This document shows, one piece after another, positions 1,380 through 16,418 of a DNA stretch of 24,000 bases; within the stretch, counting starts at the first letter, position 1; the number at the start of each line of letters is the position of its first letter. Under the pieces are notes generated by a model. The model made no database searches. It was not told where the DNA came from and worked only from the letters and a program-made list of their open reading frames with translations. Both the position numbers and the translations under genes were made by a program. This stretch comes from Alphaproteobacteria bacterium (GTDB lineage: Bacteria > Pseudomonadota > Alphaproteobacteria > MPNO01), in assembly GCA_964291675.2 (NCBI GenBank), contig OZ219866.1:29408-53407 (forward strand), read 5' to 3'.

Positions 1380-2681
1380 ATGACCGCTGTCATCACAAAA
1401 CCGGCCGACCTGATCGATCCGGGAGACATTCAGGCGCTGGTAGCCGAGAACGTGCCGGAAAGCGCTCAGATCGAATTCAAGGAAAGCCTGCCGGTAGGCA
1501 AGGGCAGTACCGATGCGTGGCTTAACGGCGGAAGCAGGATCGGCGAATACGCAAGAAACCGGATTTTGGAAGAGGTCGTGGCGTTCGCCAATGCCTATGG
1601 TGGCGCCCTGGTCCTCGGCATTGCGGAGAATCGCGCCAAACCGCCCGTCGCTGCGGCGGTAACGCCGCTGCCGCGCTGCACCGACCTGGCGGAGCGTTTC
1701 AGGCTGATGTTTCGCGATTGCGTCGAACCGCAACTCCCGACGCTGGATATCGTCCCCGTTCCGACGGACGGCGATAAGGGGGTCATCGTGTTCCGAACGG
1801 GCCGGTCACGTCTCGGTCCCCATCGCATTGCGTCCACGTTGGTGTGCCCGGTCCGGCGTGCCGACCGGTGCGAGGCACTGAGCATGCGGGAAATCCGGGA
1901 CATGACCCTCAATCTTGCGCACGGCACGGAACGGCTGGAACGCCAACTACGGGAGCGTTCCAGGAAATTCGAGGAGGAATTCAAACGTCTCGAGACCCCC
2001 GACGACGCTTTCGGGTTTCGCATGACGGCCATCCCCGTCGGCGATGAAGTTCGTTTCGGGGCTGTCTTTACCGGAGGCAGCCTACTTGAAGGATTACGTC
2101 CGCCCCACGTCCAGGTCGGGCGCGGGTCAAACAACCGGGACTCCCGATTGCGCACCATTCGAAGCTTGCATGGCATGCACTTTCAAGACTGGCGACCGAT
2201 GCTCCGGGCAGCGCGCGCGCAGGAAAGTCACGACTGGAATAGAAGAGTGACAAGACACGCTTACGCCGAAGTCCACGCCGACGGCCTATTGGAGTGGGGA
2301 TTTGTCTCGAATCGTCTCGTCGGTGAGTTTCCTGACGATCCGGCGGAAACAAACTTCGACTCCGAAACGCCGATCTCGACGCTGGCTAGGCTTCTTGTTT
2401 GGGCGGACCGCGTGCGGCAGCAGGCATCGGCCCCGGGGGCGGAGTATGCGATTCAACCGCAGTTCAGGGTCACGGCGGACAGTATCAATGTTGGAGGCAA
2501 CGACGACAAAATCGTTGTTGGGACGATCGAACGGAACGATACCGATTTTCCTTTGTACCCCTTGGAGGCGTCCGGCGACATCAGCAATACGGTTTCCCGC
2601 TTCGAGAGGGATTTCTGGAACTACTTCCGCCAAGATCCGGGTTGGAGGAGTCGCGAGCCATTGGCCATCACTCAGGCATGA
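1380..2681 (+). CDS. AlbA_2 / Schlafen-type putative nucleic-acid-binding domain protein with unknown C-terminal domain
   Basis: 433-aa ORF with ATG at 1380. The N-terminus (SAQIEFKESLP ... ILEEVVAFANAYGGALVLGIAE) carries the E-F-K ... A-F-A-N-x-x-G-G-x-L-x-x-G-I hallmark of Pfam AlbA_2 (PF04326). The C-terminal ~250 aa has no motif I recognise. Overlapping ORFs on both strands are Arg/Pro-rich shadows. Confidence 0.75.
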   Translation: MTAVITKPADLIDPGDIQALVAENVPESAQIEFKESLPVGKGSTDAWLNGGSRIGEYARNRILEEVVAFANAYGGALVLGIAENRAKPPVAAAVTPLPRCTDLAERFRLMFRDCVEPQLPTLDIVPVPTDGDKGVIVFRTGRSRLGPHRIASTLVCPVRRADRCEALSMREIRDMTLNLAHGTERLERQLRERSRKFEEEFKRLETPDDAFGFRMTAIPVGDEVRFGAVFTGGSLLEGLRPPHVQVGRGSNNRDSRLRTIRSLHGMHFQDWRPMLRAARAQESHDWNRRVTRHAYAEVHADGLLEWGFVSNRLVGEFPDDPAETNFDSETPISTLARLLVWADRVRQQASAPGAEYAIQPQFRVTADSINVGGNDDKIVVGTIERNDTDFPLYPLEASGDISNTVSRFERDFWNYFRQDPGWRSREPLAITQA

Positions 2682-6382: not shown

Positions 6383-7009
6383 ATGACGCCCGCGCTCACG
6401 ACGTCTCAGAAAGATCGGGCTGTCGCCCTTCTCAAGGTCCACGGCCCCATGCGTGGCATCGAGCTCAGCGACGCCGGCATCCACCCGGAAACCCTCGCGC
6501 GCATGCTCAAGGACCAGACCCTCACCCGCGTCACCCGCGGCCTCTACCAGCTCGCCGATGCCGAAGTGACGGCACCCCACAACCTCGCCGAGGTTGCGAA
6601 GCTGGTACCCCAAGGCGTTATCTGCCTCGTCTCCGCCCTTCAGTTCCACGAACTCACGCTCCAGATGCCCGGCCGGGTCTGGCTTGCCATAGCTTCAAGA
6701 GCGCGAAAGCCGAAGTTCCACTATCCCCCGACCCGAGTCGTGCGGTTTGGCCCGCGGGCCCTTTCCCTCGGCGTGCAGACTCACACCGTCGACGGCGTGT
6801 CCGTGCCCATTTTCGATCCAGCCAAGACGGTCGTCGATTGTTTTCGGTTCAGACAGCACGTTGGTCTCGATGTCGCGCTCGAAGGTCTCCACAACGTCGT
6901 GAGGTCCGGTAAGGCCAAACCGGCGCAGATCGTTGACTACGCCCGCGATATCCGCATCTGGTCCGTCCTCCGGCCCTATCTGGAAACGGTGGTCGCCGAT
7001 GGCGCGTGA
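6383..7009 (+). CDS. abiEi: Type IV toxin-antitoxin AbiEi-family antitoxin / transcriptional regulator
   Basis: 208-aa ORF. The N-terminal wHTH-like region ends in the TRVTRGLYQL motif. This is followed by VICLVSALQFHELTLQMP and a C-terminal domain typical of AbiEi. Its stop (7007-7009) overlaps the start of the next gene. Confidence 0.85.
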   Translation: MTPALTTSQKDRAVALLKVHGPMRGIELSDAGIHPETLARMLKDQTLTRVTRGLYQLADAEVTAPHNLAEVAKLVPQGVICLVSALQFHELTLQMPGRVWLAIASRARKPKFHYPPTRVVRFGPRALSLGVQTHTVDGVSVPIFDPAKTVVDCFRFRQHVGLDVALEGLHNVVRSGKAKPAQIVDYARDIRIWSVLRPYLETVVADGA

Positions 7010-7922
7010 ACCGAAAAATGTCGCAGCGTCAGTACGCGCGCAGCTGCAAAACCTCGCCAGGGAGCAACAGGCCAATTTCCAGCGCGTGCTTACCCGATAC
7101 GCTCTCGAAAGGTTTCTCTTCCGACTCAGCGTCTCGCCTCACAAGGAGCTCTTCGTCCTCAAGGGCGCCATGCTCTACGCCGCATGGCTCGAAGATCCGT
7201 TCCGCACGACCCGCGACCTCGACCTGCTCTCCCTCGTCGACCGCGAGACGACGCCCCTCCTTGAGACAATTCGCGACGTCTGCGCTCAGCCAGTCGCGGA
7301 CGACGGATTGCGCTTCGATACCGAGAACATCTTCGCAGCGCCGTTTGACGAGGAACGCACCCATGGCGCCTTTCGGGTCCGCACCTCGGCCCAACTCGGA
7401 ACCGCCATTGCCCCGGTCCAAATCGATGTCGGTTTCGGAGACACCGTCACCCCTGGCCCTCTGGAGCTCGAGTATCCCGTCCTTCTCGATCAGCCGACGC
7501 CCACCCTCTACGCGTACCCACGAGAAACCGTGGCCGCCGAGAAGTTCGAAGCCATCGTTGCACTCGACCTCGCGAACAGCCGCATGAAGGACTTCTACGA
7601 CGTTCTCGCGATGTCGCGGCTCTTCTCGTTCGATGGAATGACCCTCGCCGCCGCGATTCGGGCTACCTTTGAAACGCGTGGGACCACCATTCCACACGAA
7701 CGCCCTCCGCCCCTCACGCACGCATTCTCGGACGACCCCCAAAAGCTCCGGCAATGGCGATCGTTTCTCACCCGAGACCCGCTGTTGATCGACGAACCTG
7801 ACCTGCGCACCGTCATTCGTGAAGTCGGGGACTTCATCATGCCGGCAGCCCTCGCGGCCCTCGATGATCGCCACATCGCTGGACAGTGGACGTCCGACAG
7901 CGGTTGGGGGCTGGCCACATGA
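6999..7922 (+). CDS. abiEii: Type IV toxin-antitoxin AbiEii-family nucleotidyltransferase toxin
   Basis: ATG at 6999 is in frame with ORF 6933..7922 and overlaps the abiEi stop by 11 nt (ATGGCGCGTGA). MAREPKNVAASVRAQLQNLAREQQANFQRVLTRYALERFLFRLS...FVLKGAMLY...TRDLDLL is the canonical AbiEii (PF08843) N-terminus and NTase motif. Confidence 0.85.
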   Translation: MAREPKNVAASVRAQLQNLAREQQANFQRVLTRYALERFLFRLSVSPHKELFVLKGAMLYAAWLEDPFRTTRDLDLLSLVDRETTPLLETIRDVCAQPVADDGLRFDTENIFAAPFDEERTHGAFRVRTSAQLGTAIAPVQIDVGFGDTVTPGPLELEYPVLLDQPTPTLYAYPRETVAAEKFEAIVALDLANSRMKDFYDVLAMSRLFSFDGMTLAAAIRATFETRGTTIPHERPPPLTHAFSDDPQKLRQWRSFLTRDPLLIDEPDLRTVIREVGDFIMPAALAALDDRHIAGQWTSDSGWGLAT

Positions 7923-8166: not shown

Positions 8167-10365
8167 TCAATTCTCCTCCTCCCCTCTACTGCCGCGATCA
8201 TCTGCTTCACAAAATCGTCTAGCACCGACTAGCACCGCGTCTATCCGCCGACGCTCGTCCTCCGTCAGCTTCGGATCATTACAATGCTTCATCCCTGCAT
8301 CAACAAGATCATCAAGCTGATACCACCTCGCGTCAGGCCGCTCCTCCATAGAATAGTGCCGCCCGGTTTCGTCAACGCTATAAGCCACTAGTCCCTTACA
8401 CACCTTTGCCATAAACGTTGCGTTGTCCGCCATACCCTCTGTTAGCCAAGTCTTCGCCGCTTCGCAATCCGATAAGTGACTCCAGCATCTAACGATGTTG
8501 TAGTAAAATGGAGCGTCCGCGAGAGTATTTTCCTTGTAACCCGCATCAATTCTTTTCATGAGCAGCTGACCAATTGCTTCGAAGTCCTCTTTTGAAATAC
8601 ACGCTTCATCTCGCGGTGGGTTGCCAAAAACACCAAGTTCCTCGCCCCGCGACACGTAGATGTCAGCGAGGAAGCTGGGCGATCCCTCCCTCTCAAATGC
8701 TTCAATCAAAAACTGACCTGATTTTCTAATTCCCCATTGCTTCAAAATATCGTAAATCAGAAATCCGATCATCGATCGCGGCGGCAACTCCATCATGCTG
8801 AACACTTGATCAACAGATATTACCTCTTCGCCAACGCGAAACAACGCATACAGTATTGCTGACGTCCCCCGCATTGGGCTCCTTCCGGAGTACTGCACTC
8901 GCAGCTCGTGAAGCACCTTTGAGATCATCGGCACTCCACGGCTGTCAGACATCACCAGATACCCTCGGAGTATCTTTTCGATGTCCTCGACATTGGCCTC
9001 CGGGGACACCAAATCGCCGATATCTGCCAACCTAACCGCATCCGCTGATGGGTGCAGACCAAAATAACTGTCGTAGCCGGCCTCGCAACCGATGCCTCTT
9101 CTTCTCTCCACCTCGTCATAGGCGTCTGCCCCGAACGACGCATCGCTGTCAGACCACTTTGCCAATTGCGGGAATAGGACCGTGATCACCCCTAGCACTT
9201 GCGAATATTCTCCTTCTGGAACTCTTCGCTTCAGATCTTCGACGACTTGTTCCCTCACACCATCGTCAGCGAGCTGAAAACGGCCTTCGTTGAATAGGAA
9301 GTTTCGATTGTCACGAAGCCACGAAAACGCTTCCGCGTCAAACAATCGCACTCCCTCCATCCCAAGCATATCTTGCGGATCAATCTCATTGCACAGTGCC
9401 GGCCACGCAAATTTGACTGCGTTCGATAACCGTACGACGTCACGAGGTGACTTCACCCATCGATGCACACCGTCCCGTAACAACAACTGCCAACGAAACG
9501 AATTTTCTGTTTGGCGCACCAAAAACGCTGTTTCTCGATCAAGCATTCTCAGCAGTGTATTCTTCGGCGGTTGAGGCAGTTCCAATTCCTGTTGAATTAT
9601 CTTTTCACCAAACGACGGTCCCGTACCGGCAGCATCGCTGTCCAGAACGTTCCACACAATCTTGCGGTCATAGGATAGCAAGTAAATTACGTTGGGAAGT
9701 TGGCCAATGCTCTTTACCATTTTGAAAATTAGCTTTACTTCAGCGTCCTCTAACCGATCAATATCGTCAATGGTGACAAGAAATCGTTTGTCGCTATTTC
9801 TTAGTAATTCCCTTAAGTTTTCGTAGGCCTTTTGCAAAGAGGGCTCTTCCACGAAACGGTCAATCACGGAACCAAGAGATTTCTTGGCAACGCGTCCAGC
9901 GACGCGGGACATCACTCCTGCGCTGGGATCTATCGTGATTGCAACAGTCGCCGCGGCGTCTACCAACCCGTTAGAAGCATCTGACACAGCGTTACGATTT
10001 CGCTCAAGCCATCTTCGGCTTCTAGATTTCTTTGGCCCAAGATATTCTGACAACACCTTAAAGAATGCCGCAATCAGATCATGATGTCCTGTTACAAGCC
10101 AAGGTCGGAAATCAATATGTACAAGCGGGCTTTCACCGCTTTCTTTGTTGAATCTGTGAATGTACTCTATCACGAAGTTTAGAATTGTAGATTTGCCAGC
10201 GCCCCATGCACCGTGAATACCGATGACGTAGCCATTTGGTGCCTCTAGGGCAACGACTGTTCTTGCAATGCTCTCGGCGAACTGTGCATAGCCAAGTCGA
10301 TCATCTTCAGGCATTAGCTTTGGTGCATCATCGCCCAATATAAAATTGAATTCCGTGTTCGTCAT
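8167..10365 (-). CDS. KAP-family P-loop NTPase (no obvious transmembrane insert)
   Basis: 732-aa ORF, AT-richer than its flanks. The N-terminus DRLGYAQFAESIARTV...YVIGIHGAWGAGKSTILNFV (Walker A at nt 10186-10212) and the Walker B FLVTIDDIDRLE match the KAP NTPase (PF07693) pattern. The insert between Walker A and B lacks clear hydrophobic helices. Confidence 0.85.
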   Translation of the reverse strand: MTNTEFNFILGDDAPKLMPEDDRLGYAQFAESIARTVVALEAPNGYVIGIHGAWGAGKSTILNFVIEYIHRFNKESGESPLVHIDFRPWLVTGHHDLIAAFFKVLSEYLGPKKSRSRRWLERNRNAVSDASNGLVDAAATVAITIDPSAGVMSRVAGRVAKKSLGSVIDRFVEEPSLQKAYENLRELLRNSDKRFLVTIDDIDRLEDAEVKLIFKMVKSIGQLPNVIYLLSYDRKIVWNVLDSDAAGTGPSFGEKIIQQELELPQPPKNTLLRMLDRETAFLVRQTENSFRWQLLLRDGVHRWVKSPRDVVRLSNAVKFAWPALCNEIDPQDMLGMEGVRLFDAEAFSWLRDNRNFLFNEGRFQLADDGVREQVVEDLKRRVPEGEYSQVLGVITVLFPQLAKWSDSDASFGADAYDEVERRRGIGCEAGYDSYFGLHPSADAVRLADIGDLVSPEANVEDIEKILRGYLVMSDSRGVPMISKVLHELRVQYSGRSPMRGTSAILYALFRVGEEVISVDQVFSMMELPPRSMIGFLIYDILKQWGIRKSGQFLIEAFEREGSPSFLADIYVSRGEELGVFGNPPRDEACISKEDFEAIGQLLMKRIDAGYKENTLADAPFYYNIVRCWSHLSDCEAAKTWLTEGMADNATFMAKVCKGLVAYSVDETGRHYSMEERPDARWYQLDDLVDAGMKHCNDPKLTEDERRRIDAVLVGARRFCEADDRGSRGEEEN

Positions 10366-10799
10366 TGTGACATGTCTACCTGATCGTCCCTATGTATTGA
10401 TCCAACTTCATAGTTCGTGCATCTCACAGCGGAATACCACCGGAAGTCTGTTGAGTGCCCAATCTCGGGTATGCGTCGCTCAAAGTCCTTGGTCCCCTTA
10501 TTCAGCGATTGTCATCACATAGGAATCCGCCGATTTCAACCCAACGTCTCTTGTCACCGTTCCCCGCGTTCCTTCGGCCCGAAAGGAGAGCCAAGGGATC
10601 TTACAAGTACCACGAAATTTATCCCTTCGGGAATTCAAACCTCGCGAACTTTAGAAGCGGCGCTACGTAGAATCGTCGGGCTGGAGCGAAACTCAGCTCT
10701 GTCGTAGTGAATCTTCACCCGCGCGTCGGACAGGAAGAGCTGGAGAATGACATCGGCGAGCGGCGGTGAGACGGCGGTACTTGTGTTCGGGTCCATTCC

Positions 10800-11372
10800 T
10801 CAAGGAATGGATATTCCAAGCCTCGTGAGCGTCGCGATGTCCATGCGCCCGGTTTGCGGAATCCCCTCGGATCGCTGAAAGGCCTTCAGCGCGGCGCGAG
10901 TCTTGGGCCCCAGCAGGCCATCGATATCCCCGTTGTAGAGGCCTCGACGCATCAGGGCCGCCTGAACCCGGACCACCATTGTCGACACGTCCTGCGGGGT
11001 CGCTTTGGGAATCGTCCGCTCGATCCGCGGCGCAGCCTTGGGAATCACCGACGGGGCCGGGCTCGACGGCGGTGACTGATATTGCGGTTGTGGCGCCGGC
11101 GCGGAAGGGGCCTGTCGCACTCCGCCGCTGCTCGACCGGTGACTCCGGTGACTGCCGTGGGAACTATGGCTCCTGTGCGCCGCATACCGGTCCTCGGCCG
11201 TCGCATTCAGCGTATTCGGCAATAGGACCGGCGCCCTGTCGGGATTGCCAGACGCCTCCAAGTCTTCGCCAATTGCGGCGGCGGTATTGGCTCCCAACGC
11301 CGCCGTCGTCATGCCCCCAGCTGCCAGTGCTGGCCCACGCAGAAGCCGCCAAACCCTACCGCGCCATGTCAT
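10800..11372 (-). CDS. hxsA: His-Xaa-Ser repeat protein (HxsA-like precursor) with signal peptide and C-terminal peptidoglycan-binding (PG_binding_1) domain
   Basis: 190-aa ORF with GAGGG about 10 nt upstream of ATG 11372. The N-terminal signal-like region is WRLLRGPALAAGGMTTAALGANTAAA. Five perfect tandem H-x-S triplets (HRS HSS HGS HRS HRS) were verified at nt 11133-11177. A Pro/Ser/Ala-rich linker follows. The C-terminus VVRVQAALMRRGLYNGDIDGLLGPKTRAALKAFQRSEGIPQTGRMDIATLTRLG matches PF01471. It lies immediately downstream of two radical-SAM genes. Confidence 0.7.
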   Translation of the reverse strand: MTWRGRVWRLLRGPALAAGGMTTAALGANTAAAIGEDLEASGNPDRAPVLLPNTLNATAEDRYAAHRSHSSHGSHRSHRSSSGGVRQAPSAPAPQPQYQSPPSSPAPSVIPKAAPRIERTIPKATPQDVSTMVVRVQAALMRRGLYNGDIDGLLGPKTRAALKAFQRSEGIPQTGRMDIATLTRLGISIP

Positions 11373-11397: not shown

Positions 11398-12585
11398 CTA
11401 TCCGATCTGTCCCACGGTCTCCCTCACCGGCTTGATAGCACGGCTCATCCACTTGCCGTCTATCGACCGAAAGAACCCGCAACATTCGTCTCGCAGCATG
11501 CATCCGACACATTCCGGCAGATAGGTGTTCTTCCAGTCCGAGATGCTTTGTCTGGAATATGGCCGAAGTTCTACCGGCACCGTGCAAAGCGGAAAGTTGT
11601 ACAAGGAAACGCTCATTCCCCGATTTGCGAGAAAGAATACCGCATCGCGCAGCGCGTCCATGCAGTCGACCGGATCGATCCATATCTTCTCGTAGTTGGC
11701 CCGCGCGAAACCGATCGGCTCCAGTCCCATGAACGCGACATGCCCTGCAAAGGTCAGGTTCCGGAATATGAAATACGCCAGTTCGCCGAGCCGTTCGACG
11801 TTGGGTCGCTGCACGACAACGCGGATTTCGATATCCGCCTCGTGCTTCGCCAGGTTGTGCAGCCCGGCCAGCGTCTCCTCCCAAGCGGTGTCGGCCTGGA
11901 CGATGTAGTCGTGGATTTCCGGGCAGTCAGAGTAGAGCGGGATACCCCAAGTCAGGTTCGGGTGCCTGACAGCACAGGCCGTCCGGGCGAACGCCTCTTC
12001 GGCGAACCGCCTTCCGTTGGAGAGGATATGAAGGCCGGTGTCCGGTAGGAGGCGCCGAGCCCGATCCAGAACCACGAGCAGGTCGTCGCCAAGCAGGGTC
12101 GGCTCGCCGCCGCTGATGCCGAGCTGTGCCTCGTCCCGGTCCACCAGAGAAATCGTCTCCAGCATCTCGCCGACCAACCATCCGTCATCGACATCACGCG
12201 GGGGCTGAGAGCACATGATGCAGAAGCTGTTGCACCGTTCCGTCGCGAGCAGAGTGTTGCTGTTAGACCCGCGCCGGTAGAGAACCGATACTCGGGAACT
12301 CCCCTCCACCAGACGAATGACGTCACCCGGCGCAACGACACCCGGCGTGCCGATCCGGTCGACTGCGATCCCGGCGGCCGAATCGCCTTCGAGAGCGCCG
12401 CCCGTCACGACGCCGGCCCAGGGCCCATCCACCTTCTCCGGCTCCTTGCCCTCCCGCCGATCGAGCCAGATCAGGCAACGTTCCGGGTCGATATCGGATC
12501 GAACGGCTTCGTTCGCCGTGAGGACTTTCACGATCGCCCGGTCTTGCACACCTTGGACTCGGGCCCGGGTATGAAGAGGCAGCAT
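11398..12585 (-). CDS. hxsC: Radical SAM maturase, HxsC-like
   Basis: 395-aa ORF. CNSFCIMC (CX3CX2C, nt 12211-12234) is followed by SQPP, then GISGGEPTL (SAM-binding GGE). A C-terminal Cys cluster reads LPECVGCMLRDECCGFF. ATG 12585 lies 3 nt after the hxsB stop. Size and pairing with a SPASM rSAM and an HxS-repeat protein fit the HxsC family as I recall it. Confidence 0.8.
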   Translation of the reverse strand: MLPLHTRARVQGVQDRAIVKVLTANEAVRSDIDPERCLIWLDRREGKEPEKVDGPWAGVVTGGALEGDSAAGIAVDRIGTPGVVAPGDVIRLVEGSSRVSVLYRRGSNSNTLLATERCNSFCIMCSQPPRDVDDGWLVGEMLETISLVDRDEAQLGISGGEPTLLGDDLLVVLDRARRLLPDTGLHILSNGRRFAEEAFARTACAVRHPNLTWGIPLYSDCPEIHDYIVQADTAWEETLAGLHNLAKHEADIEIRVVVQRPNVERLGELAYFIFRNLTFAGHVAFMGLEPIGFARANYEKIWIDPVDCMDALRDAVFFLANRGMSVSLYNFPLCTVPVELRPYSRQSISDWKNTYLPECVGCMLRDECCGFFRSIDGKWMSRAIKPVRETVGQIG

Positions 12586-12588
12586 GCC

Positions 12589-14094
12589 CTACACCCGGTA
12601 ACCGGCTGCGGACAGCTCGGATGCGTCTCGCCGGGTCATCCAGGAAAGGAACACCCGCAGCACATCGGGATCTCGTCCCGCCAATAGTTCGAAGACGATT
12701 CGGAACAGGCCGGTATGGCGGTGGCAGAACTCGCTTGTCGGCCGATGACCGACGGGGTTTCCCTGCGTCGCCACGTTGAAAACGGGATCGGCGCCGCAAT
12801 AGGGAACGAACGCGCATTCCGAGCAGACCGGCAGCTTCTCTGCATCGCCCGCGTCCTCGATGATCTTCATGGCGTTCGATTGCCGGAGATCGGCCAACGA
12901 ATCATGGACCGAGCCCATTCGGAAGCGGTCGTCGCCCATCTCCGCCAGCATTCGGCCCTCGTCCGAAACGTAGACCCCGCCATCGTAGTTGTAGACGAGC
13001 ACGTTCCTGCCTGCGGCCGCGGGCGATTGCAGGTCGACATAGTCGGTCGGAAACGGTGTCAGGATTCTCGTCAACAGCAGGGTCGCGTACGATTCCTCGA
13101 TCCTCCGTCCCGCGAGGTTGACCTCGATCAGATAGTCCAGGGCCTCGCGGTAGAACCGCAGAAATTCGTCGCTCGTGTATCCCAGCTTGCGCCGGCTCTT
13201 CACGGCAAAGCCGAAGGGACTGATCGGCCGAAGCGAGATCGAGTCGAACCCCAGCTCCAGATAGGTATCCACGGTCTCGCGCGGATACCCCAGGCCATGC
13301 CGAGTGATCGTCGCCAACGCTGCCACGCGATCATGACCGCAGATCGCTCGCGCCCGCGCCATTCCCTCCACCGTTCGCTTGAACGAATCCCGCATCGCAT
13401 TGGGTCGGTTCGCGTCGTGAACGTGCTCCGGACCGTCGAGCGAGGTGGACAATTCGATCCGGTGGTCCCGGCAGAAGGCCAGCATGTCGTCCGTCATCAG
13501 GTGCAGGGTCGTCGCCATCACGAACCGCACCATCCTTTCGGCCACCCGAGCGCGCCGGGCCGCTTGCTTGACGATCCGCCGCACGAGGGGAAAGGCCAGC
13601 GCAGACTCACCGCCCTGAAACTCGATGGTCAGTGTCTCCGCCTTCGATTCGAACACCCGATCCAGAGCGGCATCCGCGGTCGCGTCGTCCATGTCGAATC
13701 CGCGCTCCCACGGGCGACGCGGCGACACCTGGCAGTAGTGGCAGCGATGGTCGCATCTCAGGGTCAGAACAAGAATGTGCAGCGCGGGGTCTTCCGTCGC
13801 GAAGTGCTTCCGCGTCCGTTGCTGCGCGGCCAGCCCCGGAAGAAACGGACCCCGCTCGGCATCGCAAACGATCTGCCGCGTCCGCAGATCGCGGTAGATC
13901 TCCGTTCCGGGTTCAAGCGTACCGTCGGTCAGCTTGCGGAAATCGTTCTCGGCCAGAAACAGATATTCCCCGACCGCAGACGTCACCAGAACCTGGCCCG
14001 GAAGAGTCGGCAGCCTGGTGTGTCTGAAAGGCAGGACCTCGTACGCTCGGGAGGGCGCCGCAAATTCCTTCGGATCGCGAAAGGCCGCGGTCAT
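12589..14094 (-). CDS. hxsB: Radical SAM/SPASM-domain maturase, HxsB-like
   Basis: CDHRCHYC (CX3CX2C, nt 13732-13755) is followed by FQGGESAL. The C-terminal SPASM-like Cys motifs are CSECAFVPYCGADP...EFCHRH. The start is chosen at ATG 14094 (MTAAFRDPKEF...). The ORF-track extension to 14322 is Arg/Trp-rich and looks non-coding. ATG 14142 is an alternative start. Confidence 0.8.
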   Translation of the reverse strand: MTAAFRDPKEFAAPSRAYEVLPFRHTRLPTLPGQVLVTSAVGEYLFLAENDFRKLTDGTLEPGTEIYRDLRTRQIVCDAERGPFLPGLAAQQRTRKHFATEDPALHILVLTLRCDHRCHYCQVSPRRPWERGFDMDDATADAALDRVFESKAETLTIEFQGGESALAFPLVRRIVKQAARRARVAERMVRFVMATTLHLMTDDMLAFCRDHRIELSTSLDGPEHVHDANRPNAMRDSFKRTVEGMARARAICGHDRVAALATITRHGLGYPRETVDTYLELGFDSISLRPISPFGFAVKSRRKLGYTSDEFLRFYREALDYLIEVNLAGRRIEESYATLLLTRILTPFPTDYVDLQSPAAAGRNVLVYNYDGGVYVSDEGRMLAEMGDDRFRMGSVHDSLADLRQSNAMKIIEDAGDAEKLPVCSECAFVPYCGADPVFNVATQGNPVGHRPTSEFCHRHTGLFRIVFELLAGRDPDVLRVFLSWMTRRDASELSAAGYRV

Positions 14095-14381
14095 TCCACG
14101 TCCAGCAGACAAGCGTTCATCTCCCTCATCGGTGCACCCCATTGAATCTCGAATCGGTTCGTTCCGGTCCGGCCCTTGGGACCAGCGTGGACTTCCTATA
14201 CCCCTGCCTTCCCACCTTCGCACCCTCTTCCTCAGAACCCGCCGAACCGAAGCAACTGACCACAGCCAGAGCGGTACCCAACCAGCTGATTCGCCGCCCG
14301 GACGATCACTCATCCCTTGCACCGCTGGGCAGGTGGGTTAGCTTGACCATCGTTCAGGACAGATGGTGCTGCGCGGGGCCC

Positions 14382-14819
14382 ATGACGATTGCTCCCATCA
14401 ATACAGGAGTGCCGCGGTGCCGGATGCTGCTTTGCGCTCAACTGATCGCGGCTATGGTCATCGCTATCGCCGCCCAGCTTCCCGCCCACGCCGACGCCCC
14501 TCCGCCCGCCGTCGCCGCTCCGTCTGAGAAATCCGCCACGACCCTCAGCCACCGCAACGAGCGTAGTACCCCACGGGTCTCGGTCTTGCCTGCCAGTCCC
14601 GCGATTGCTCATGATCGCGAACAAACTGGAGATCGCCTCTCCGTCGGTCTCGCCAAAGCCGTCCTGCTACGCCTCGGATATCCGGTCGGCCGCTTGGACG
14701 ACCGAACCACCGCGAAATTCAAGGCCGCGCTATTCCGGTACCAGCGCGCCCACGGCATCCCGTCCTCCGGTACTCTCGACGAGGCAACACTCCGGTCACT
14801 GGGAATCACCCCGAAATGA
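14382..14819 (+). CDS. Secreted protein with degenerate PG_binding_1 domain; repeat-less paralogue of the HxsA-like C-terminus
   Basis: In-frame ATG at 14382, or at 14424 (MLLCAQLIAAMVIAIAAQLPAHA|DAPPP, a signal peptide). The C-terminus VGLAKAVLLRLGYPVGRLDDRTTAKFKAALFRYQRAHGIPSSGTLDEATLRSLGI aligns position by position with the PG-binding domain of 10800..11372. It is divergent from hxsB, and its stop overlaps the next start (ATGA at 14816-14819). Confidence 0.6.
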   Translation: MTIAPINTGVPRCRMLLCAQLIAAMVIAIAAQLPAHADAPPPAVAAPSEKSATTLSHRNERSTPRVSVLPASPAIAHDREQTGDRLSVGLAKAVLLRLGYPVGRLDDRTTAKFKAALFRYQRAHGIPSSGTLDEATLRSLGITPK

Positions 14820-15199
14820 AGCGCATCCTGCTTCCCCTGAATGCATTGGCCGTTCTCATCGTCCTCGCCTTCGGCGCCGACCGTTACTTGGCGCCCGTGA
14901 TCGCGAAAGCGATCTATGCCGAGGATTACAGGAATCTGATGTATCAGTGCGACCACGTCATGCGCGAACACTTCATCGCCAAGCAAATGGTGCTGGCCTC
15001 GACGACCGAAGAGACGATTCGCAACCTGGAGGCCGCCGAAGTCGGTCTCACCACCTGCCACGAATACGACAAGCTGCGAAAGGAGATGATCCGCTGGGGG
15101 CTTTCCGAGAACTCGCTTGCCCGCATCGGTCTTGAAGCCATCGAAGAACGAGCCACGGACATCCGCAAGTTCGTCGAGATCCATGAAATCCGCTACTAG
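14816..15199 (+). CDS. Small membrane-anchored or secreted hypothetical protein
   Basis: 127-aa ORF. The N-terminal hydrophobic helix is LLPLNALAVLIVLAFGA. It has two Cys residues. It is translationally coupled on both sides: an ATGA overlap upstream and a 17-nt overlap with the peroxidase start at 15183. No family recognised. Confidence 0.45.
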   Translation: MKRILLPLNALAVLIVLAFGADRYLAPVIAKAIYAEDYRNLMYQCDHVMREHFIAKQMVLASTTEETIRNLEAAEVGLTTCHEYDKLRKEMIRWGLSENSLARIGLEAIEERATDIRKFVEIHEIRY

Positions 15200-16418
15200 G
15201 CTCCTTCTTGCCGCCATCGCACTCACGATCGGGACCGCGGCCAGTGCCGCCGACAAGTCGTTTTCCGAGATTCTGCGTAATGCCGCACTTGCCAACGGCC
15301 TTCTGCCGCCCAAACAGCTCTTCGTAGACACCGATCAGCATCTGGCGGCCATCGGCAGGGCATTCTTCGAAAGCAAGAACCTGAGCCTGAACGGCCGGAT
15401 TGCTTGTCGGACGTGCCATCTCGACGCCTTCAGCTCGGGCGACGGGCTGCCGAATGCCGTGGGCATCTTCGGCACCGGCGAGGGACCGGTGCGAGCATTC
15501 AGCGAGGGGAAGATCGTCCCTCGGAATACTCTCCCGCTCTGGGGACGCGGGGGCCAGGGATTCGATGTCTTCTTCTGGGACGGGAAGGTCGACTTCTCCG
15601 GACAACGACCGCTGAGCCAGTTCGGTGCCGATGTACCTTCATCCGATCCACTGTTGACCGCGGTCCACCTTCCACCCGTCGAGATTCGCGAGATGATCGA
15701 CGACGACGCCGATGTATCGCGATTCAAAACCGAGTCCCCGGCGCAAGCTCACCGCCTGTACGCGCGGATCCTGACTCGCCTTCTCGAGACGGAACAAGCA
15801 GCAATGGAGGACCTCGCCACCAACCTAAACAAACAGCCTAACGAACTTGCCTTCAGCGATGTGGCACGATCGATTGCCGCCTTCATACGTTCGGAGTTCC
15901 GCCTTCACGATACCGACTTTCATCGGTTCGTCTTTGGAGACGGCCCACTTTCCCGTGACGAAATCCAAGGGGGGTTGATCTTTTATGGCAAGGGGAAGTG
16001 CGTCAATTGCCACACCGGACCTTATTTCTCGGACCTTCGGTTCCACGCCATTCCATTTCCACAGCTCGGATTTGGGAAGAACGGTTTTGGAATTGACTAC
16101 GGCCGCTTCAATGTCACCTTCGATCCTGACGATCTATACAAATTCCGCACGCCGCCACTCTTCAATGTCGCATCCACGTCACCCTATGGTCACTCCGGTT
16201 CTCTTTCGGTGCTTCGTGATGCAATAGTAGGCCATTTTGACCCTCTTCGAAATTTGGACACCGATGCGATGACCCCATTATCACGCCATGAGTACTACAA
16301 GAGAATGGCTGCGGTCGGTGCCGACTTCAGACTCTTCAGTGTCCTCACGGATCAAGAAGTTGCATTGGTCATTGAGTTCCTCAAGACGCTCAGCTTCTCT
16401 TCTCACGCTTCCAGATGA
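15183..16418 (+). CDS. Di-haem cytochrome c peroxidase / MauG-family protein (periplasmic)
   Basis: ATG 15183 gives the signal peptide MKSATRLLLAAIALTIGTAASAA. Two haem-c motifs are present: CRTCH (nt 15405-15419) and CVNCH (nt 15999-16013). Family hallmarks are CHTGPYFSD, FRTPPLFNV and SPYGHSGS (PF03150 CCP_MauG). Confidence 0.85.
   Translation: MKSATRLLLAAIALTIGTAASAADKSFSEILRNAALANGLLPPKQLFVDTDQHLAAIGRAFFESKNLSLNGRIACRTCHLDAFSSGDGLPNAVGIFGTGEGPVRAFSEGKIVPRNTLPLWGRGGQGFDVFFWDGKVDFSGQRPLSQFGADVPSSDPLLTAVHLPPVEIREMIDDDADVSRFKTESPAQAHRLYARILTRLLETEQAAMEDLATNLNKQPNELAFSDVARSIAAFIRSEFRLHDTDFHRFVFGDGPLSRDEIQGGLIFYGKGKCVNCHTGPYFSDLRFHAIPFPQLGFGKNGFGIDYGRFNVTFDPDDLYKFRTPPLFNVASTSPYGHSGSLSVLRDAIVGHFDPLRNLDTDAMTPLSRHEYYKRMAAVGADFRLFSVLTDQEVALVIEFLKTLSFSSHASR

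What the first reader, a model, noticed from the sequence alone, without database searches (positions are those of the whole stretch)
10800..11372. Hxs precursor is fused to a peptidoglycan-binding domain and has a repeat-less paralogue across the cluster
As I recall them, HxsA proteins are short signal-peptide plus repeat proteins. Here the H-x-S block is followed by a Pro-rich linker and a full PG_binding_1 domain. That would tether the modified His-rich segment to the cell wall. A second protein (14382-14819), divergently transcribed from hxsB, has the same signal-peptide, linker and PG-binding layout but no H-x-S repeat. This looks like a duplicated scaffold in which only one copy is a substrate. 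A wall-anchored, post-translationally modified poly-His segment suggests metal capture or redox chemistry in the periplasm (inference).
Basis: partly seen in the sequence, partly recalled or inferred. Interest (0 to 1): 0.6.

Follow-up and report, generated by a model that had tools for sequence, protein, structure and literature searches.

The report
Known HxsA plus repeat-less wall-binding partner
The His-x-Ser repeat protein joined to a cell-wall-binding domain is the normal, already published form of the HXS anti-phage effector. The second, repeat-less wall-binding protein is real and conserved, carries its own invariant short motif, and belongs to an unstudied accessory module with a two-haem enzyme.

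Summary
The sequence observation holds. 10800-11372(-) encodes a 190-aa protein with five tandem HxS triplets, a Pro-rich linker and PF01471. 14382-14819(+) encodes a 145-aa PF01471 protein with no HxS run.

- The NCBIfam HxsA model (TIGR03979, 190 positions) spans the PG domain and matches end to end above its cut-off.
- 116 of 120 listed homologues carry PF01471.
- Li et al. (Nat Commun 2026, PMC13128918) showed that HxsA (signal peptide, five HxS repeats, PG-binding domain) is the periplasmic effector of the HXS anti-phage system.

The paralogue is the more interesting part:
- It is a conserved family and was present in all 9 'split' loci examined.
- It always sits just upstream of a TIGR03982 protein and a MauG-like di-haem enzyme, and its stop overlaps the TIGR03982 start here.
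- It has an invariant box, RNERSTPRxSVLPxSPA, in a predicted disordered linker.
- In one-operon relatives a single HxsA carries both the repeats and this box.
- Trees suggest the paralogue is not a recent local copy. It appears to have come with the di-haem module from another HXS lineage.
- No HxsD is found in this genome.

This scan had noted HXS di-haem and split variants before on other DNA. Verdict: known HxsA, plus a new variant of a known system.

The parts
10800..11372 (-). hxsA: His-Xaa-Ser repeat protein, precursor of the wall-anchored HXS effector (190 aa)
   Evidence: TIGR03979 137 bits > cut-off 121.65, residues 20-189 on profile 12-190/190. PF01471 58.2 bits. 184 homologues, of which 117 of the 120 listed have HxS runs.
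11133..11177 (-). five tandem HxS triplets (H66-S80). With S81 the last repeat gives SHRSS, the motif that carries the +8 Da modification in E. coli HxsA
   Evidence: Read from the translation. H66 S68 H69 S74 H75 S77 H78 S80 are invariant in alignment A2. SHRSS role from PMC13128918.
10818..10976 (-). PG_binding_1 domain of HxsA (residues 133-185)
   Evidence: PF01471 9.6e-16.
11398..12585 (-). hxsC radical-SAM maturase
   Evidence: TIGR03977 384 bits > 267.9.
12589..14094 (-). hxsB radical-SAM/SPASM maturase. The probable start is the ATG at 14094; the open frame runs on to 14322
   Evidence: TIGR03978 551 bits > 370, match starts at residue 97 of the 577-aa frame. Homologues align from the Met at 14094.
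14095..14381 (.). 287-nt divergent intergenic region between hxsB and the paralogue operon
   Evidence: Sequence read. No sigma-70-like consensus site was found there.
14382..14819 (+). repeat-less HxsA-derived wall-binding protein (145 aa): Sec signal, disordered linker with invariant box, PG_binding_1
   Evidence: PF01471 33.3 bits. TIGR03979 34.6 bits, below cut-off. 50 homologues and about 35 further 50%-identity clusters. dN/dS 0.18-0.44. AF2 model: helix 12-31, low pLDDT 36-80, PG domain pLDDT >90.
14550..14609 (+). conserved box H57-A76, (H)RNERSTPRxSVLPxSPAIA: a short linear motif
   Evidence: R58 N59 E60 S62 T63 P64 L69 P70 P73 A74 A76 are invariant in 34 sequences that fall to 36% overall identity. 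The same box follows the HxS repeats in single-gene HxsA proteins at L019:9330-9926 and L012:2205-2870, and in P0094, P0100, P0110, P0112, P0117, P0118, P0120 and P0265.
14643..14801 (+). PG_binding_1 domain of the paralogue (residues 88-140)
   Evidence: PF01471 5.5e-08. AF2 pLDDT 91-96.
14816..15199 (+). TIGR03982 / PF27798 His-Xaa-Ser system small protein with an N-terminal membrane anchor. Its ATG overlaps the paralogue's TGA (ATGA)
   Evidence: TIGR03982 110 bits > 40. ATGA read. C45, C81, Y84, D85, K89, H123 invariant in 10 loci.
15183..16418 (+). His-Xaa-Ser system-associated MauG-like di-haem enzyme with a Sec signal (start taken at the Met of MKSATRLL)
   Evidence: TIGR03981 368.8 bits > 340, PF03150. 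Signal-peptide features.

Best explanation
Gene 10800-11372(-) is an ordinary HxsA. It is the precursor of the periplasmic, peptidoglycan-anchored effector of the HXS anti-phage system. The adjacent radical-SAM enzymes HxsB and HxsC presumably mature it on its five HxS repeats, which include the SHRSS site. Its PG_binding_1 domain is part of the family definition, not an addition.

Gene 14382-14819(+) is a repeat-less descendant of an HxsA. It is not a recent copy of its neighbour. It resembles the C-terminal two-thirds of a 'bipartite' HxsA lineage, in which one protein has HxS repeats, then an RNERSTP...VLPxSPA box, then the PG domain. The paralogue has kept a classical Sec signal peptide, the invariant box in a disordered linker, the PG domain, and the ancestral position immediately upstream of the TIGR03982 small membrane protein and the MauG-like di-haem enzyme. 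Its stop codon overlaps the TIGR03982 start.

Inferred, not shown: in the periplasm it is the wall-anchored docking partner of those two proteins, through the linear box. In one-gene systems HxsA itself does this job. This clade therefore splits 'repeat array' and 'accessory-module anchor' between two wall-bound proteins. The hxsBCA half and the paralogue/TIGR03982/MauG-like half probably come from two different HXS lineages. The system has no HxsD.
For: HxsA identity:
- TIGR03979 137 bits > 121.65 over profile 12-190/190, next to TIGR03977 and TIGR03978 proteins above their cut-offs.
- PF01471 present. 116/120 listed homologues carry PF01471 and 117/120 have HxS runs.
- Published architecture and function are in PMC13128918.

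Paralogue is real and constrained:
- 50 homologues and about 35 more clusters.
- Invariant box. dN/dS 0.18-0.44.

Synteny:
- Paralogue, then TIGR03982/PF27798, then MauG-like, divergent from hxsB-hxsC-hxsA, in all 9 split loci: window, L004, L006, L007, L008, L010, L011, L025, L026.
- In all 10 loci compared (split and one-operon), a PG-binding gene lies directly upstream of the TIGR03982 gene. It overlaps that gene in 9.

Descent from HxsA:
- Single-gene HxsA proteins carry repeats, the same box and the PG domain.
- The 90 closest homologues of the window's HxsA lack the box.
- In the PG-domain tree the paralogue clade (100/99) is nearest the L019/P0265 bipartite HxsA clade. Split-type HxsA forms its own clade (97/99).

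Mosaic origin:
- Window versus L024 / L019 identities: HxsB 45/31%, MauG-like 35/58%, TIGR03982 36/52%.
- HxsB tree: split + L024 98/92. MauG-like tree: split + L019 98/95.
- AU tests: HxsB rejects split+L019 (p 4e-11). MauG-like rejects split+L024 (p 2e-5).

Linear-motif reading: the AF2 model has low confidence for the box region (block means 50-61 over residues 51-80) and high confidence for the PG domain.

Export: the paralogue, TIGR03982 and MauG-like proteins all have strongly hydrophobic N-termini.

No HxsD: no TIGR03976 match in the own genome and none above cut-off in 5 other genomes with the paralogue. No HxsD-like small ORF in the split loci.
Against: - Nothing here is experimental. 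The link between the box and the TIGR03982/MauG-like proteins rests on gene order alone.
- L023 (Marinobacter halodurans) and L024 have the TIGR03982 and MauG-like genes next to HxsA proteins that lack the RN box. The box is therefore not a universal requirement of that module.
- The mosaic-origin argument uses only 14 loci with long branches, and the groups were named after the trees were seen. The MauG-like data do not reject monophyly of the bipartite-type loci (p 0.11). HxsB rejects an L023+L024 clade only at p 0.023.
- The PG-domain tree has only 66 columns.
- The E. coli system needs HxsD for HxsA maturation, so it is unknown whether this HxsD-less locus is active.
- The signal-peptide calls are my own hydrophobicity computation, not a trained predictor.
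Confidence: 0.68

Rival explanations
1. A local tandem or inverted duplication of hxsA produced two copies of one scaffold. One copy kept the repeats and is the substrate. The other lost them and is an inert or merely structural wall-binding protein.
For: The general layout is shared: export signal, low-complexity linker, PF01471. The PG domains are 44% identical. The paralogue is HxsA-derived.
Against: The two PG domains are not sister groups. Homology is confined to 59 columns. The paralogue's most conserved part is a box that the neighbouring HxsA lacks. The two halves of the locus have different nearest relatives.
Confidence: 0.12
2. The paralogue is itself a second effector or substrate. 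The MauG-like di-haem enzyme, helped by the TIGR03982 protein, oxidatively modifies a residue in or near the conserved box or in the PG domain. This would be analogous to MauG acting on pre-methylamine dehydrogenase or MbnH acting on MbnP (my knowledge of those families).
For: All three products are exported, and the paralogue and TIGR03982 genes overlap start-to-stop. The box is invariant and lies in a disordered, accessible segment. NCBIfam names TIGR03981 'SAM_quin_mod'.
Against: The box has no Trp, Tyr or Cys, which are the usual targets of MauG-type chemistry. Relatives L023 and L024 have the enzyme without the box. No mass data exist.
Confidence: 0.2
3. The paralogue is an unrelated PG_binding_1 protein, a decaying remnant, or a mis-called ORF that lies next to the Hxs genes by chance.
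For: It falls below the TIGR03979 cut-off (34.6 vs 121.65 bits). No Shine-Dalgarno sequence is obvious before 14382. It was left uncalled in one public contig (L026).
Against: It is conserved with invariant residues in 34 or more sequences. dN/dS is below 0.5. It is present in 9 of 9 split loci with the same neighbours. It shares the box with true HxsA proteins.
Confidence: 0.03

Closest known systems
HXS anti-phage system of E. coli/Klebsiella, hxsD-hxsB-hxsC-hxsA (Li et al., Nat Commun 2026, PMC13128918)
   Same: HxsA has an N-terminal export region, five HxS repeats ending in SHRSS, and a C-terminal PG-binding domain. Paired radical-SAM genes hxsB and hxsC lie next to it in the order B-C-A. 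The locus sits in a defence-island-like setting, with AbiEi/AbiEii, a KAP NTPase and a Schlafen-like gene nearby.
   Different: There is no HxsD anywhere in the genome. A divergent three-gene periplasmic operon is present: the repeat-less HxsA-like protein, TIGR03982 and the MauG-like enzyme. That paper does not mention such an operon (0 occurrences of 'MauG'). Activity against phages is untested here.
Six-gene HXS variant catalogued by NCBIfam/Pfam (TIGR03976-TIGR03979 plus TIGR03982/PF27798 and TIGR03981), e.g. Marinobacter halodurans (L023) and Hoeflea sp. WL0058 (L020)
   Same: The same TIGR03982 and MauG-like genes are present, and a PG-binding gene lies immediately upstream of TIGR03982.
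   Different: There a single HxsA fills that position and all genes are on one strand. In the window's clade the position is held by a repeat-less derivative, the hxsBCA genes are inverted, and HxsA has lost the RN box.
Bipartite HxsA proteins (L019:9330-9926, L012:2205-2870 Novosphingobium profundi, P0117, P0120, P0265)
   Same: The paralogue shares their RN(E/x)xSTPxxS(V/I)LPxSPA box, PG domain and downstream neighbours. It is 42% identical over 104 aa to the L019 protein.
   Different: They carry HxS repeats before the box. The paralogue has none.
Short HxsA2/HxsA3/HxsA4 repeat proteins (NF038296, NF038309, NF038313)
   Same: They have an HxS repeat block. The window's HxsA gives weak sub-threshold matches to HxsA3 and HxsA4 in that block only.
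   Different: Their profiles are 81-96 positions long and have no PG domain. The window's protein is not one of them.
MauG / MbnH-type di-haem enzymes acting on a partner protein (my knowledge of the families)
   Same: The locus has a secreted di-haem CCP/MauG-family enzyme encoded next to small exported partner proteins. TIGR04039 MbnH and TIGR03791 MauG give sub-threshold hits.
   Different: No substrate residue is known, and the candidate partner box lacks aromatic residues.

Membership tests
HxsA (NCBIfam TIGR03979), tested on 10800-11372(-) | Whole-protein score above the curated cut-off, end-to-end match | tested here: met
   137 bits vs 121.65; residues 20-189 on profile 12-190/190.
HxsA (NCBIfam TIGR03979), tested on 10800-11372(-) | Tandem His-Xaa-Ser repeats including the SHRSS site | tested here: met
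   HRS HSS HGS HRS HRS followed by S81. The repeat columns are invariant in A2.
HxsA (NCBIfam TIGR03979), tested on 10800-11372(-) | C-terminal peptidoglycan-binding domain | tested here: met
   PF01471 58.2 bits at residues 133-185.
HxsA (NCBIfam TIGR03979), tested on 10800-11372(-) | N-terminal signal for export to the periplasm | tested here: inconclusive
   The N-terminus is conserved, Trp-containing and Ala/Gly/Thr-rich, but only weakly hydrophobic (KD 1.32) and has no RR motif. The E. coli paper also reports non-canonical export.
HxsA (NCBIfam TIGR03979), tested on 10800-11372(-) | Encoded next to hxsB and hxsC | tested here: met
   TIGR03978 and TIGR03977 proteins lie directly upstream on the same strand.
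Four-gene HXS defence system (Li et al. 2026) | HxsD (TIGR03976 / PF27806) present and required | tested here: not met
   No match at E<=10 in the 4.8-Mb, 93.7%-complete genome. No HxsD-like small ORF in the window or the split loci.
Four-gene HXS defence system (Li et al. 2026) | Protection against phage by blocking DNA entry | not testable with these tools
   Needs plaque assays with the cloned locus.
HxsA (TIGR03979), tested on the paralogue 14382-14819(+) | Score above cut-off and HxS repeats | tested here: not met
   34.6 bits vs 121.65, matching profile positions 90-189 only. No HxS run in it or in 33 aligned homologues.
PG_binding_1 (PF01471), tested on the paralogue | Score above the Pfam gathering threshold | tested here: met
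   33.3 bits vs 23. The AF2 three-helix domain has pLDDT >90. PDB sequence hits are PG-binding domains only.
TIGR03982/TIGR03981 HXS accessory pair | Both genes above cut-off and adjacent to the Hxs genes | tested here: met
   110 bits > 40 and 368.8 bits > 340.

The most novel reading that the evidence does not exclude
The invariant RNERSTPRxSVLPxSPA box is the docking or modification site through which a membrane-anchored TIGR03982 protein and a MauG-like di-haem enzyme act at the cell wall. If so, most non-enteric HXS defence systems would have a second, periplasmic, oxidative maturation or activation step that the E. coli model lacks. In this clade that step would have been moved onto a separate wall-anchored protein, which would allow an HxsD-less, mosaic HXS system to function.
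Probability: 0.3. Interest if true: 0.65.

Novelty: new variant of a known kind. Interest (0 to 1): 0.42.

Why it matters
HXS was shown only in 2026 to stop phage DNA entry, and its chemistry and mechanism are still open. The published model rests on the four-gene enterobacterial form.

This locus belongs to a clade, mostly from uncultured Alphaproteobacteria, that differs in three ways. It lacks HxsD. It keeps a normal HxsA. It also has a second, repeat-less HxsA-derived wall protein tied to a di-haem enzyme module.

The two conserved elements of 'bipartite' HxsA, the repeat array and the RN box, sit on separate proteins here. That makes a natural separation-of-function experiment. Each can be deleted on its own to ask what the box and the di-haem module contribute to defence.

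Tried and rejected
- A shared 'R-x-E-R-(S/T)-x-P' motif between HxsA (RIERTIP) and the paralogue (RNERSTP). It is not conserved among HxsA homologues, and hhalign aligns nothing outside the PG domain. Rejected.
- An exclusive link between the RN box and the MauG-like module. L023 and L024 have the module with box-less HxsA. Rejected.
- HxsD hidden in the 76-codon N-terminal extension of the hxsB frame, or in the 53-aa ORF 10635-10796. No TIGR03976 or NCBIfam hit and no similarity to HxsD-like small ORFs of relatives.
- A Tat signal. Neither protein has a twin-arginine motif.
- The genome-contig scan with the paralogue profile gave only 5 loci. TIGR03982 was above cut-off in 1 of 400 sampled same-class genomes. 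The variant is rare among species representatives, and the pattern-based scan can miss relatives.
- Haft and Basu 2011 (PMC3133131) is not held. No paper in the library holds both 'His-Xaa-Ser' and 'MauG'.
- A PDB sequence search found only generic PG-binding domains. I ran no fold search, because the model outside the PG domain has low confidence.

Full report
**1. The observation**

The minus-strand ORF 10800-11372 encodes 190 aa. Residues 66-80 read HRS-HSS-HGS-HRS-HRS (nt 11133-11177). A Pro/Ala/Ser-rich linker follows, then a C-terminal PG_binding_1 domain (PF01471, 58.2 bits, residues 133-185).

The plus-strand ORF 14382-14819 encodes 145 aa with PF01471 at residues 88-140 (33.3 bits) and no HxS run. 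The two proteins align only in the PG domain, at 44% identity over 52 aa, E 2e-10. A profile-profile comparison of the two families also aligns only those 59 columns.

Two corrections apply.
- The N-termini differ in kind. The paralogue has a classical hydrophobic signal with an A-H-A|D site. HxsA has a weakly hydrophobic Ala/Gly/Thr-rich N-terminus. Neither has a twin-arginine motif (my own computation).
- The paralogue is not featureless between its signal and its PG domain (see section 3).

**2. The fusion is the canonical form**

- The NCBIfam HxsA model TIGR03979 is 190 positions long. It matches the window's protein from position 12 to 190 at 137 bits, above its 121.65-bit cut-off.
- The paralogue's linker and PG domain hit positions 90-189 of the same model. 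The family model therefore contains the PG domain.
- Of the 120 best homologues, 116 carry PF01471 and 117 have HxS runs. Several are named 'His-Xaa-Ser repeat protein HxsA' by NCBI or JGI.
- Li et al. (Nat Commun 2026, PMC13128918) describe HxsA as signal peptide, five HxS repeats and PG-binding domain. They show that it is the periplasmic effector of the HXS anti-phage system. HxsB, HxsC and HxsD mature it by N-terminal cleavage and a +8 Da change on SHRSS. Mutating the PG domain abolishes defence.
- The window's HxsA has five repeats and the SHRSS site.

**3. The paralogue is a real, conserved family with its own motif**

- A search found 50 homologues of 119-162 aa.
- A profile search of 1.84 billion representatives added about 35 further short, repeat-less clusters.
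- The alignment of 34 members falls to 36% overall identity. It still has an invariant box between the signal peptide and the PG domain: R58 N59 E60 (R) S62 T63 P64 (R) x S V L69 P70 x S P73 A74 x A76.
- dN/dS against relatives is 0.18-0.44.
- AlphaFold2 with this alignment gives a signal helix, a low-confidence segment from 36 to 80 that holds the box, and a confident three-helix PG domain with pLDDT above 90. The box therefore looks like a short linear motif in a disordered tether.
- NCBIfam has no model for this protein. Public names are only 'peptidoglycan-binding domain-containing protein'.

**4. Context**

- The paralogue's TGA overlaps the ATG of a TIGR03982 (Pfam PF27798 'His-Xaa-Ser_sys') gene, read as ATGA.
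- A TIGR03981 'His-Xaa-Ser system-associated MauG-like' di-haem enzyme gene follows. Both of these products have hydrophobic N-termini.
- This three-gene operon diverges from hxsB-hxsC-hxsA.
- The same arrangement is present in all nine split loci I examined, down to 48% paralogue identity: window, L004, L006, L007, L008, L010, L011, L025, L026. In L026 the gene had simply not been called.
- No HxsD (TIGR03976) is found in this genome, and none above cut-off in five other genomes that carry the paralogue. The loci hold no HxsD-like small ORF.
- The neighbourhood holds AbiEi/AbiEii, a KAP NTPase and a Schlafen-like gene. This fits a defence island.

**5. Where the paralogue comes from**

- In L019, L020, L021, L022 and L012 (Hoeflea, Novosphingobium profundi and MAGs) all genes lie on one strand in the order hxsB-hxsC-hxsA-TIGR03982-MauG-like.
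- In these loci the single HxsA carries both the HxS repeats and the same box before its PG domain, for example ...SRNDESTPPNSVLPSSPAI....
- The 90 closest homologues of the window's HxsA lack the box.
- In all ten loci compared, a PG-binding gene lies directly upstream of the TIGR03982 gene, overlapping it in nine.
- In a PG-domain tree (66 columns, so treat with caution) the paralogues form a clade (100/99). Their nearest HxsA relatives are the L019/P0265 bipartite proteins. The split-type HxsA proteins form a separate clade (97/99).
- The two halves of the locus have different nearest relatives. Window versus L024 and L019: HxsB 45% and 31%; MauG-like 35% and 58%; TIGR03982 36% and 52%.
- The HxsB tree joins the split loci to L024 (98/92). 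The MauG-like tree joins them to L019 (98/95).
- AU tests reject the opposite groupings, p 4e-11 and p 2e-5.
- Caveats: only 14 loci, long branches, and groups named after seeing the trees. The MauG-like data do not reject monophyly of the bipartite-type loci (p 0.11). HxsB rejects an L023+L024 clade only at p 0.023.

My reading is that the paralogue is the remnant of the HxsA that belonged to the di-haem module. It lost its repeats when that module was joined to an HxsD-less hxsBCA set from another lineage. Simple local duplication is less likely.

**6. Mechanism**

Shown elsewhere by experiment: HxsA is exported, wall-anchored and required for defence.

Shown here by sequence: the window's HxsA has all the family features except a partner HxsD.

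Inferred: the paralogue is exported by Sec and tethered to peptidoglycan. It presents its invariant box to the TIGR03982 and/or MauG-like proteins, either as a docking site (my preferred reading) or as a substrate (the rival). In single-gene systems HxsA would do this itself.

Against a strict link: L023 and L024 have the di-haem module next to HxsA proteins without the RN box.

The published evidence favours electrostatic interference with incoming DNA.

**7. Novelty**

- The HxsA-PG fusion is already known.
- The TIGR03982 and MauG-like accessory genes are catalogued by NCBIfam and Pfam but unstudied. No paper in the library holds both 'His-Xaa-Ser' and 'MauG', and the 2026 paper does not mention MauG.
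- Earlier notes of this scan on other genomes had already recorded HXS variants with a di-haem module, a wall-binding protein and a split effector.
- New here: the invariant box, its presence in both bipartite HxsA and the repeat-less family, the 9-of-9 synteny without HxsD, and the evidence for a mosaic origin.

I class it as a new variant of a known kind, of moderate interest.

**8. Limits**

- No signal-peptide predictor and no complex predictor were on hand.
- The survey of species genomes found few loci. Most relatives come from metagenome contigs.

Noticed in passing
window 14095-14322 (-): The hxsB open frame extends 76 codons upstream of the Met where homologues and the TIGR03978 match begin. 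The extension is Arg/Trp/Gly-rich and is probably not translated, which leaves a 287-nt divergent intergenic region.
   Followed up: partly
window 14363-14384: Several paralogue homologues begin MVLRAGPMT..., 7-8 residues earlier. In the window the matching ATG at 14363 is in another frame, so translation most likely starts at 14382, as in L008. This looks like a 2-nt difference, but I inferred it from protein N-termini only.
   Followed up: partly
L019:6583-6852 and L021:4251-4499: Small ORFs of 89 and 82 aa overlap the hxsB start. They are homologous to each other (phmmer E 2e-8) and carry an 'LYRE(R/K)I' segment that recalls the HxsD LLNDYxLRE motif. TIGR03976 does not detect the L019 ORF (the L021 ORF was not scanned). 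They are probably divergent HxsD.
   Followed up: partly
L004:391-1524, L023:967-1698, L025:239-955: Ion_trans (voltage-gated channel-like) genes recur a few genes from HXS loci of different subtypes. An earlier scan note on a Bacteroidales HXS locus also mentions a K+ channel.
   Followed up: no
L004:7329-7910, L004:1530-2228, L021:9530-9940 and 12300-12707: Secreted-nuclease (PF00565 SNase) genes lie next to HXS loci. In L004 one lies directly upstream of hxsB on the same strand.
   Followed up: no
L004:2755-3318 (-): A third PG_binding_1 protein (187 aa) with a lipoprotein-type signal (LTGC) lies 660 nt downstream of hxsA. It has no HxS repeats and no RN box.
   Followed up: partly
window 14816-15199 (+): In the TIGR03982 protein, C45, C81, Y84, D85, K89, G95, E110 and H123 are invariant across 10 loci. 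The C-terminus is (I/E)HEI(R/H)Y in the loci whose neighbouring PG protein has the RN box, and different in L023 and L024. This could reflect co-evolution or just shared ancestry.
   Followed up: partly
window 1380-2681, 6383-7922, 8167-10365: Schlafen/AlbA_2-like, AbiEi/AbiEii and KAP P-loop NTPase genes flank the Hxs locus, giving a defence-island setting.
   Followed up: partly
window 11398-12585 (-): HxsC has about 84 residues N-terminal to the TIGR03977 match. I did not check whether this region substitutes for the missing HxsD.
   Followed up: no
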